40,286 bases of DNA from Nanobdellota archaeon (GTDB taxonomy: Archaea; Nanobdellota; Nanobdellia; Pacearchaeales; GW2011-AR1), in NCBI GenBank assembly GCA_030648285.1, contig JAUSIC010000023.1, positions 1 to 40,286 of the forward strand, in the 5' to 3' direction. Positions 7,692 through 10,600 of the stretch are shown here, piece after piece (position 1 is the first letter of the stretch; every line of letters begins with the position of its first letter). The position numbers were made by a program.

Positions 7692-10600
7692 TTTCCAACC
7701 TACTATGGCCGTCTTCAAGATTGTCTATAATTGACGATTTATAAAGGTTTTTATATGAATATTTAATGATATTCTTATGCGGGGGTGCCAGAGTGGTCAA
7801 ATGGGCAACGCTAAGGCGAGAGTTTGCGGAGTAATCCATATGCAAGCAGGCCTCGGAGAAACGTTGTGGCTTAGTGCCTGCGCAGGTTCAAATCCTGTCT
7901 CCCGCATTAAATACCCTATTATAATAATCTTTAAATATAGATATCTTTTGATTTTAAAATGGAAAGTAAAACAGGAATACTTTGCCATGGAAGGCACGTT
8001 CTAGCAAATAATTGGGAATTGCATCAATGGGGAGATAAGGAAAAAGGATTGCTTGGACAAGTTCTGAAAACATTGTCTCTTGCCGCTAAACAATACCCTG
8101 AAGTTGTGGTATTTGGGACAGGAGCATCAGAAAAAGATGGATTAAAAGAATCAGAGTATACTATTAGATATATGTTTGAACATTTTGATGAGATAAACGA
8201 ATTTCCACAATTTAATGGAGCAGATATGCAAGGTTTGAAAAATTTTATGTCTGCACACTCTGTTCCAGAAAAAAAATCACAAAATACTCTTGAAGAATTG
8301 AAATGCGCTATGGACATTTTTTCCTCTTATTCAGTAAGTAGAATTTTTATTGTTTCAAATCCAGACCATATCTCAAGATGCATGCAATTGGCTCATCAGG
8401 TTTATCATGATTTAAAACCAAGAGGTTTAGATGAGATATTCGCTGCTCAAAGTGATGTTGGTTATAACGGAACCTTAAGTGTTACATCAAAAATTATAGA
8501 AATGCCTCATCGCGGAGATGACCCAAGTCCAGATTTATCAAAATACATAGGAAGTTATTTTAGGCTTCCATTAGAAAAGAAAATAGAGTTTGTAGAACAG
8601 GTAAGAAAATTTTTAGGACAATAATTAAAAAAAACTAACAACTCCTTTCTGAAGAAGAAGTATTCCAAAAATTATGCTTATGAATATCGGCATTGCAATT
8701 AGAGAGGATAAAATCAAAACAGCTCCTGAAAGTAAATCAACCCAGCCCCCAAATTCTTTGAACATCCCTAAAAAAGATTTTGCAATTAAAATAATTCCTA
8801 AGATTAATAAAAGTGGTGAAGGAAGTTTTACTCCTGCCCCAAATAATAATATTAAACCAGATGAAATGTCAATTGCTCCAAGAATTTTAATCAGCATATT
8901 TTTTAAATCAAATTACTCTTTAAAAATGTGCCCTTGTGATACTAAAGAACAAGGGTGAACGAAGTAAGCCCTTGTAGCTCAACTTGGATAGAGCGACACC
9001 CCCCTAAGGTGTAGGTTGCAGGTTCAAATCCTGTCAAGGGCGTAAAATTTGGATTTGAACTTTTTGCATATATATCTTCAATCACTAAAAAATTTAAAAA
9101 GAGAAGTTATTCTTGTCTAATATGCCAAAAGAGGACTGGAATTCATCAGGAAAGAATCCTTCTAAAGGACAAATAGATTATTCTATGAGAGAACCTTTCA
9201 TGAGAAAACTCAAGACTGTTGGACAAATGAGCGAAATAAGAGAAAAAATAAAAAAAGAGGGAAAAACCCTTGTATGGACAAATGGGTGCTTTGATCTAGG
9301 GCATTGGGGACATGTGAGATATTTCTCATGTGGGAAAGCATATGGAGATTATCTTATAGTAGCAATAAATAGTGATGATTCTGTCAGACGATTAAAAGGA
9401 CCCCATAGACCAATAATGGATTGGATGGCACGCATAGAAGCAATATCTCATATAGAATCAGTAGATTTTATATTAATCTTTGAAAGTGATTCTCCTTTAA
9501 GAGAACTAGAAATTCTAAAACCAGATGTTTGTCTAAAAGGTAATGATTATACTCTGGAAACAGTAAATCAAATGGAAAGAAAACTTATTGAAAGTTACGG
9601 GGGAAGAATAGAAATAACCCCTACATCTGTCGATTCAACCACAAAAGTTCTGGAAAGAATAACAGATTATCTTAAAACATTATACGATCCTCAAACAGGA
9701 GAATTTGACCTTAAGAAAGGCGGATATGTTTGATAATTTTTTAAATAGGAAAAATAAATATAATCTATGAAATTTGAAAATATTGTTCGTTATGAACATT
9801 TTATTCTTATCGGAATTATCATGAGTATTGGAACTCTGATAAAACTTCTTGGATTTTGGGATTTTTCTTCTGATTGGTTTTGGTTTCTTGCAGGAATAGG
9901 GCTAACTGTTGAAGGAGTAATTTCTTTGGTTAAACAGAAAAGATTCGATAAGAAATATAAAATTGTCGAAAGAGAAGAATGATTTTTTCTATAGCAAACT
10001 TTAAAACTCTGTTTTAGGTAATTAAATTAAGCGCTGATAGTTCAGTGGTAGAATGTCTGCCTTCCAACAAGAAGAACCATATGGTTCTTCCTTGGACCAT
10101 CTCCTTTCAAAGGGAATAATCCGGAAGACAGCAGACGACTCGGGTTCGAATCCCGATCGGCGCATACAAAATGAGCAAACAGGAAATTTGCCACAAACAT
10201 AAAATAGGAAATTTTACATAATGGAAGAAACACAAATTCATCAACCAAAACAGAAATTTTCAGAAAAATTTGGAAAATTTCATGATAAATATTACAAATT
10301 ACTATTAATTATTCCAGTAATTCTTTTCCTTATTGGTTTTATTTACATGTTCAGTTTTTATCAAAAAAACAATGACTACATATATAGAGATATTTCTTTA
10401 ACAGGAGGAACTTCTGTCACAATAAACAGAGCAATAGATATGAATGATTTATCAAATGCAATTTCTGATAAGCTTGAAAATGTAAATCTTCGCGAGATTT
10501 CTGATTTAGTGACTAAAAAGCAAATAGCAGTTATTGTAGAAACAAAAAGTGATGCCGAACTCACTCGTTCTGTTTTAGAGGAATATCTTGGTTATCAATT

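What a model noticed while it worked through the whole genome (the two positions that open the first line are those of the whole stretch)
7779..7906. A34 tRNA-Leu(AAG) replaces tRNA-Leu(GAG) in an archaeal lineage, with no TadA/ADAT
A tRNA missing from the tables, with a 44-nt intron at 37/38 (7817-7860), matures to tRNA-Leu(AAG); the genome has no tRNA-Leu(GAG) and no tRNA deaminase. The A34 form is the rule in this family, so these archaea likely read CUU/CUC with an A34 tRNA, against the view that archaea lack ANN tRNAs.
Evidence so far: Spliced form folds as tRNA-Leu(aag) with G37; the orthologous locus in G401 and G404 is an intronless Leu(AAG). Pattern search: AAG form in 66 of 80 other family genomes, GAG pattern in 7 of 80, none of them with AAG; ARAGORN calls Leu(aag) in 24 of 30 fetched loci; also in 18 of 64 genomes of other Nanobdellia families. 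dCMP_cyt_deam and MafB19-deam not found here, nor dCMP_cyt_deam in 3 of 5 relatives. CUU 2149 and CUC 386 codons in annotated genes have no other reader among Leu tRNAs UAA, UAG, CAA.
(Added by a program. Inside this text positions count along the whole contig: contig position 1 is position 1 of the stretch shown here. "Call 12" and the like, gene names such as g00115 and contig names such as C1 are that model's own, and its searches are not shown. The text may have been shortened before it was handed on; [...] marks where a part breaks off. The agent that wrote the report below was given it as the finding of a first reader that could run no searches.)

Follow-up and report, generated by a model that had tools for sequence, protein, structure and literature searches.

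The report
Archaeal leucine tRNA starting with A
This tiny archaeon, most of its family and many relatives in two phyla carry a leucine tRNA gene whose anticodon starts with A in place of the usual G, and no known editing enzyme goes with it, so they likely read CUU and CUC codons with an unedited A, something archaea were thought to avoid.

Summary
Confirmed, and wider than reported. 7779-7906 is a tRNA-Leu gene with a 44-nt intron; anticodon AAG lies at 7813-7815. ARAGORN's intron mode miscalls it Ser(AGA), but intronless orthologs fix the reading. AAG was found in 119 of 140 other family genomes, GAG in 8, never both. AAG also occurs in 13 other families of the class (41 of 115 genomes) and in a second phylum (13 of 91). 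AAG and GAG occupy the same loci and swap at least 11 times on a 60-genome RpoB tree. No TadA model hit reaches its cut-off in 141 family genomes, and weaker hits do not track AAG (28/119 vs 2/8). CUC stays in use; a shift towards CUU is modest and not clean. Best reading: unmodified A34 reads CUU and, less well, CUC (0.5). Rivals: an unknown deaminase (0.28) or CUC read by tRNA-UAG (0.17). No RNA data test this. Papers report only isolated archaeal cases (Ferroplasma); ten searches found no clade-wide report. This scan noted the same trait twice before on other DNA.

The parts
7779..7906 (+). tRNA-Leu(AAG) gene with intron
7779..7816 (+). 5' exon, ending at G37
7813..7815 (+). anticodon AAG (A34 at 7813)
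   Evidence: intronless orthologs
7817..7860 (+). 44-nt intron at 37/38; central helix of the bulge-helix-bulge has 2 of 4 standard pairs (A34 and A35 face G)
7861..7906 (+). 3' exon: A38, anticodon stem, long variable arm, T arm, discriminator A73
7603..7716 (-). 5S rRNA gene, neighbour in the conserved locus
   Evidence: synteny
7052..7249 (+). rpoN, neighbour in the conserved locus
8968..9042 (+). tRNA-Arg(CCT), neighbour in the conserved locus
10031..10164 (+). tRNA-Gly(TCC) with 63-nt intron, neighbour in the conserved locus

Best explanation
The gene is the genome's only detected purine-34 leucine tRNA, with anticodon AAG; after the predicted removal of its 44-nt intron it likely keeps an unmodified A34 and would read CUU by a normal pair and CUC less well by an A-C wobble. 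Shown: the gene, its replacement of the GAG allele at the same loci, conservation of a fully paired stem, and the lack of a TadA-grade enzyme. Inferred: splicing by the genome's EndA, charging with leucine, the unmodified state of A34, and CUC reading. In a four-codon box any misreading at the third position is silent, so G34 and A34 alleles would be nearly interchangeable, which fits the repeated switching.
For: AAG in 119 of 140 family genomes, GAG in 8, none with both (two possible GAG rows in AAG genomes were not tRNAs). All 35 distinct intronless AAG genes have a fully paired 5-bp anticodon stem across 22 different stem sequences. Same loci: next to rpoD/rpl18e in 18 of 35 AAG and 6 of 18 GAG loci, 0 of 26 TAA/TAG/CAG loci; G032 has GAG at the window's rpoN-5S-Arg(CCT) locus. 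At least 11 switches on a 60-genome RpoB tree. TadA model: 0 of 141 family genomes reach the cut-off; weaker hits in 28 of 119 AAG and 2 of 8 GAG genomes (hand count). No CDA-fold hit in AAG genomes G067, G165 (98% complete) or G223 (100%). In RNA-polymerase loci of 60 genomes the CUC/CUU ratio shows the largest AAG effect of 16 boxes (-0.59, t -3.3). In E. coli, engineered four-codon-box A34 tRNAs were mature, unmodified and tolerated (bioRxiv 10.64898/2026.05.15.725136, passages).
Against: No mature-tRNA data. CUC remains 11-32% of CUY codons in the 11 AAG genomes sampled, while unmodified A34 mostly reads U-ending codons unless the first two pairs are both G-C (PMC11066159 abstract); CUC has only one. 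The codon shift is not clean: 23-genome contrast against four-fold boxes p=0.23; sister pairs 6 of 8, p=0.055, and the Phe control box shifts more (8 of 8). A shift away from CUC is also expected with inosine (PMC13249217 section 7), so it does not separate A from I. The TadA cut-off is strict (6 of 14 control genomes pass). An enzyme of another fold would escape every search made.
Confidence: 0.5

Rival explanations
1. A34 is converted to inosine (or otherwise modified) by an unrecognised enzyme, either the archaeon's own or one supplied by a host cell, and the edited tRNA reads CUU and CUC about equally.
For: Elsewhere Leu(AAG) replacing Leu(GAG) goes with I34 (PMC13249217 abstract and section 7). 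CUC is still well used. Positions 32/38 of AAG genes are mostly U-C or C-A (31 of 35), against U-U in 14 of 19 GAG genes; non-complementary 32/38 is the pattern described for eukaryotic A34/I34 tRNAs (PMC7293025 passages). Archaea turn A57 into m1A and then m1I (PMC7668247 passage); that the enzyme is unidentified is my recall.
Against: No HxE/PCxxC deaminase motif in any open frame of 90 aa or more in this genome; PF00383, PF14437, NF008113 and PF02137 blank here. TadA-like hits do not track AAG. Only the leucine box shows A34: the four other ANN calls among loci held were intron-bearing Leu-type genes miscalled by ARAGORN. Frequent switching fits a change that needs no enzyme. The 32/38 link is partly kinship and is weaker in the second phylum.
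Confidence: 0.28
2. Division of labour: the unmodified AAG tRNA reads mainly CUU, the commonest CUN codon, and CUC is read chiefly by tRNA-Leu(UAG) through four-way wobble.
For: A UAG gene is present here and in 3 of 3 near-complete relatives tested. No Ala(GGC) or Pro(GGG) gene was seen here or in G067, which hints that U34 tRNAs read C-ending codons in some boxes; these lists are incomplete (Tyr was also missed in G067).
Against: Elp3, which starts U34 modification, is present here and in 44 of 48 AAG genomes tested; modified U34 is expected to be limited to A- and G-ending codons (established knowledge). AAG replaces GAG one for one instead of being added or lost.
Confidence: 0.17
3. This copy is mis-spliced or dead: the intron is cut elsewhere (giving AGA or AAA) or not at all.
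For: ARAGORN's intron mode prefers Ser(aga); the central helix has only 2 of 4 standard pairs; the single EndA is a 172-aa enzyme, and only types with an extra loop are reported to cut relaxed introns (PMC5829648 passages).
Against: The same 2-of-4 helix occurs in 5 of 5 intron-bearing AAG genes, and 10 of 12 other intron-bearing Leu genes also have a mismatch. The body is leucine-type (A73, variable arm shared with the other three Leu genes). 101 of 120 GTDB matches are intronless AAG genes, so the clade-level trait does not depend on this copy.
Confidence: 0.05

Closest known systems
tRNA-Leu(AAG) of Ferroplasma acidarmanus fer1 (PMC6000648, passages)
   Same: Archaeal Leu(AAG) with GAG absent; read by the authors as a G-to-A change in the GAG gene.
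   Different: Reported as a species-specific gain in 1 of 167 genomes. Here it is the majority state of a large family, occurs in 13 more families and a second phylum, and switches repeatedly.
tRNA-Leu(IAG) of Lactobacillales, edited by TadA (PMC13249217, abstract and one section; bioRxiv 10.64898/2026.05.15.725136, passages)
   Same: AAG replaces GAG clade-wide; only the leucine CUY reader is affected.
   Different: No TadA here; no rise in the CUY share of leucine codons (0.28 vs 0.29); editing untested.
Unmodified A34 tRNAs of four-codon boxes, e.g. mycoplasma tRNA-Thr(AGU) (occurrence cited in the bioRxiv passages; unmodified state recalled)
   Same: A34 in a four-codon box of a small AT-rich genome without a matching deaminase.
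   Different: Other domain, other box; unmodified state not shown here.
Standard archaeal tRNA-Leu(GAG)
   Same: Same gene body, G37, and same loci.
   Different: Base 34, and usually the 32/38 pair.

Membership tests
tRNA-Leu (long variable arm type) | Cloverleaf with a Leu anticodon after splicing | tested here: met
tRNA-Leu (long variable arm type) | Discriminator A73 and long variable arm shared with the other Leu tRNAs | tested here: met
tRNA-Leu (long variable arm type) | Charged with leucine | not testable with these tools
   needs an aminoacylation assay; a LeuRS gene is present
Canonical archaeal BHB intron | Position 37/38 with two 3-nt bulges | tested here: met
   geometry; intron-less orthologs agree
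Canonical archaeal BHB intron | 4-bp central helix | tested here: not met
   2 of 4 standard pairs
TadA-edited tRNA-Leu(IAG), Lactobacillales type | AAG gene present, GAG gene absent | tested here: met
TadA-edited tRNA-Leu(IAG), Lactobacillales type | TadA gene in the genome | tested here: not met
   0 of 141 family genomes reach the cut-off
TadA-edited tRNA-Leu(IAG), Lactobacillales type | Inosine at 34 in the mature tRNA | not testable with these tools
   needs tRNA-seq or mass spectrometry
TadA-edited tRNA-Leu(IAG), Lactobacillales type | Leucine codons shifted towards CUU/CUC | tested here: not met
   CUY share 0.28 in 11 AAG vs 0.29 in 12 GAG genomes
Unmodified A34 tRNA of a four-codon box | A34 gene in a four-codon box, no deaminase that tracks it | tested here: met
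   limited to known deaminase families
Unmodified A34 tRNA of a four-codon box | A34 unmodified in the mature tRNA | not testable with these tools
   needs tRNA-seq or mass spectrometry

The most novel reading that the evidence does not exclude
DPANN archaea make wobble inosine (or another A34 modification) with an enzyme unrelated to TadA/ADAT, a third and independent route to I34 decoding, in the one domain held to lack it.
Probability: 0.25. Interest if true: 0.9.

Novelty: new variant of a known kind. Interest (0 to 1): 0.68.

Why it matters
Reviews state that archaea lack all ANN tRNAs (PMC8007984), and a 2026 preprint counts 3 ANN genes among 10,517 archaeal tRNAs and calls the absence of unmodified A34 a paradox. 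Here hundreds of DPANN genomes (about 500 GTDB stretches estimated from a quarter of the collection) use AAG as the CUY reader without TadA. Either outcome is informative: unmodified A34 works as a long-term decoder, or archaea have an unknown wobble deaminase. At least 11 switches give natural replicates, and one tRNA-seq run on a sample rich in these cells would decide. It also matters for annotation: intron-bearing copies are missed or miscalled as Ser, Phe or Thr.

Tried and rejected
Expression and editing from reads: no RNA holder listed; the two DNA runs are contigs and no listed piece spans the locus, so they say nothing on splicing or editing. Elp3 as cause or partner of AAG: present in 44 of 48 AAG and 9 of 32 GAG genomes, but in this family the contrast rests on one Elp3-less clade that holds 7 GAG and 3 AAG genomes; kept as a lead only. 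AAG arising from the UAG paralog: nearest non-AAG gene was GAG for 14, TAA for 10, TAG for 9, CAG for 2 of 35, not decisive; synteny favours GAG. A GAG anticodon supplied from the intron's 3' end: would need an 8-nt loop, and two of its letters are explained by pairing to C32/U33. TadA-like proteins as the editor: 10 class-level hits tested scored at most 98.7 of 150 bits; by motif (recalled) they look like dCMP, cytosine or guanine deaminases, and they are patchy. Codon usage as a test of A versus I: cannot separate them. The ORF at 7959-8624 as a partner: no NCBIfam hit, not found in 111 Leu loci. Folding the unspliced gene gave z -1.96 and no cloverleaf.

Full report
Observation. The window holds a tRNA gene at 7779-7906 that intron-less ARAGORN and Rfam miss. 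The anticodon arm is interrupted by 44 bases. ARAGORN's intron mode calls it Ser(aga), and sliding the intron gives AGA, AAA or AAG, so the window alone is ambiguous. Orthologs settle it: with 7817-7860 removed the gene folds as tRNA-Leu(aag) with G37 and A73, and its nearest intronless relatives are AAG genes (75 and 74 of 84 bases). The genome (85% complete) has four Leu-type variable arms, belonging to TAA, AAG, TAG and CAA genes, and no GAG.

The intron. At 37/38 the central helix has C32-G and U33-A, while A34 and A35 face G. The same 2-of-4 helix is in 5 of 5 intron-bearing AAG genes examined, and 10 of 12 other intron-bearing Leu genes have one mismatch, so this is a family habit and not decay of this copy. 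One EndA gene of 172 aa is present. Cleavage of this imperfect site is inferred.

Distribution. A D-arm-to-anticodon pattern over 140 other family genomes (85% complete or better) gave, by hand count of the printed matches, AAG in 119, GAG in 8 and neither in 13. Rows without a tRNA-like D arm were set aside as chance; 3 such rows among the 30 loci fetched were indeed not tRNAs, 25 were called Leu(aag), 1 was cut by a contig end and 1 was an intron-bearing gene miscalled Phe. Two possible GAG rows in AAG genomes were not tRNAs. In 115 genomes of other families of the class, 41 (13 families) showed AAG and 24 (11 families) GAG, none both among listed rows; 50 were undetermined and 13 matches were not listed. 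A GTDB-wide scan stopped at 120 loci from 16 of 64 parts (about 500 estimated); 103 of 120 were called Leu(aag), 101 without intron, and most of the other 17 were truncated or miscalled intron-bearing genes; the record titles mostly read Woesearchaeota, Pacearchaeota or Nanoarchaeota. One title read Aenigmatarchaeota. In 91 genomes of that record's phylum, 13 had a tRNA-like AAG row and 15 a GAG row, none both; 8 rows were set aside as chance and 57 genomes had no match. Four of the 13 were checked: two called by ARAGORN, two with an intact anticodon arm and an insert in the T arm.

Allelic replacement. AAG lies beside rpoD or rpl18e in 18 of 35 loci and GAG in 6 of 18, against 0 of 26 for TAA, TAG and CAG. 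The window's own locus (rpoN, 5S rRNA, Arg-CCT) carries GAG in G032. On a FastTree RpoB tree of 60 genomes that I chose to include both states, rooted on G216, AAG is the state of the sister family and of the deep branches of this family, and GAG is nested in two places. The tree needs at least 11 changes (shuffled mean 18, minimum 11 in 1000); it is one gene and its deep nodes are weak. All 35 distinct intronless AAG genes keep a fully paired stem across 22 stem sequences, which points to selection on a working tRNA. Positions 32/38 go with base 34: U-C or C-A in 31 of 35 AAG genes, U-U in 14 of 19 GAG genes and 0 of 35 AAG genes; in 90 GTDB genes U-C or C-A made 68 and U-U 3. Kin inflate these counts.

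Deaminases. None was found in this genome by PF00383, PF14437, NF008113, PF02137 or a motif scan. PF00383 hits 71 of 131 class genomes but not the AAG genomes G067, G165 (98%) or G223 (100%). Ten hits tested scored at most 98.7 of the 150 bits required for TadA. In the family 0 of 141 reach that cut-off; 33 have weaker hits, 28 of 119 AAG, 2 of 8 GAG, 3 of 13 undetermined (hand count). The cut-off is strict (6 of 14 controls pass), but 91 of 119 AAG genomes lack even a weak hit. An enzyme of another fold is not excluded.

Codon use. CUC is still used, 11-32% of CUY in 11 AAG genomes (partial sequence except for this genome; simple ORF calling; G208 left out there for lack of sequence). A shift away from CUC appears in RNA-polymerase loci of 60 genomes (-0.59, t -3.3, largest of 16 boxes) and in CUU/CUN (0.53 vs 0.39, p=0.027, one of several tests). 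It is weaker elsewhere: p=0.23 against four-fold boxes, and 6 of 8 sister pairs, p=0.055, with the Phe control box shifting more. No test corrects for kinship fully. The shift fits a working CUY reader but is expected under both A34 and I34.

Mechanism. Most likely the spliced tRNA keeps A34, reads CUU well and CUC less well (0.5). Third-position errors are silent in this box, so A and G alleles would be nearly interchangeable, as the repeated switching suggests. Rivals: modification by an unknown or host enzyme (0.28), CUC read by tRNA-UAG (0.17), a dead or mis-spliced copy (0.05). Elp3 is present in 44 of 48 AAG and 9 of 32 GAG genomes, but few independent events underlie this.

Literature. 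PMC8007984 (passages): all ANN options missing in archaea. PMC6000648 (passages): isolated ANN genes in 167 genomes, including Ferroplasma Leu(AAG). bioRxiv 10.64898/2026.05.15.725136 (abstract start and passages): 3 ANN genes in 10,517 archaeal tRNAs; engineered four-codon-box A34 tRNAs work unmodified in E. coli. PMC13249217 (abstract, one section), PMC11066159 (abstract, passages), PMC7293025, PMC8879553, PMC7668247, PMC9897764 (passages), PMC5829648 (passages and a term search of its supplement). Ten searches were run; those aimed at a prior report (pairing tRNA, A34, AAG or anticodon with archaea, DPANN, Pacearchaeota, Woesearchaeota, Nanoarchaeota, Aenigmarchaeota, Ferroplasma) found none for a clade. 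The library lacks most subscription papers, and the other supplements, which may list such genes, were not read. Two earlier notes of this scan describe the same trait on other DNA; they are not independent support, and part of each fell in a later check that I cannot see.

Verdict. Real, clade-wide, a new variant of a known kind. Interest 0.68: it overturns a stated rule at the level of whole clades and makes a named open question testable, but the chemistry at position 34 is unknown and single archaeal cases were already in print.

Noticed in passing
G000 contig C21, L207:3-1208 (-) and L207:1264-1779 (+): The leucyl-tRNA synthetase is of the bacterial type (TIGR00396 550 bits on a partial protein vs archaeal model 138) and lies head to head with the EndA gene. 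Not tested against AAG/GAG state.
   Followed up: partly
80 genomes of the class; tree: Elp3 is present in 44 of 48 AAG genomes and 9 of 32 GAG genomes; one well-supported clade of this family lacks it in 10 of 10 genomes and holds 7 of the 8 GAG genomes.
   Followed up: partly
L012:1501-1598 (-): The locus syntenic with the window's gene has the same anticodon stem but reads CAA with a 14-nt intron at 37/38; possibly an anticodon shift or a damaged copy.
   Followed up: no
L001, L002, L020, L049, L053 and intron-bearing loci: In intron-bearing AAG genes the base facing A34 in the central helix is nearly always G or A, rarely U; unexplained, perhaps inherited from introns of U34 or C34 tRNAs.
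   Followed up: partly
G000 whole genome; G067 tRNA loci L213-L246: No Ala(GGC) or Pro(GGG) gene was seen in either genome, while Ile(TAT) with an intron is present in both; lists are incomplete.
   Followed up: partly
L006, L007, L019, L021, L030, L073, L077, L494, L496: Leu tRNA genes with inserts outside 37/38 (anticodon stem, T arm), some with two inserts, although this genome's only EndA is a short single-domain enzyme.
   Followed up: no
G000 C19:92-175 and window 3-701: In this genome rpoD ends at the window's contig edge and tRNA-Leu(CAA) precedes rpl18e on another contig, so the rpoD-rpl18e slot that holds AAG or GAG in many relatives seems to hold CAA here.
   Followed up: partly
window 7959-8624 (+): 221-aa ORF right after the tRNA with no NCBIfam match and no relative in 111 Leu loci.
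   Followed up: partly
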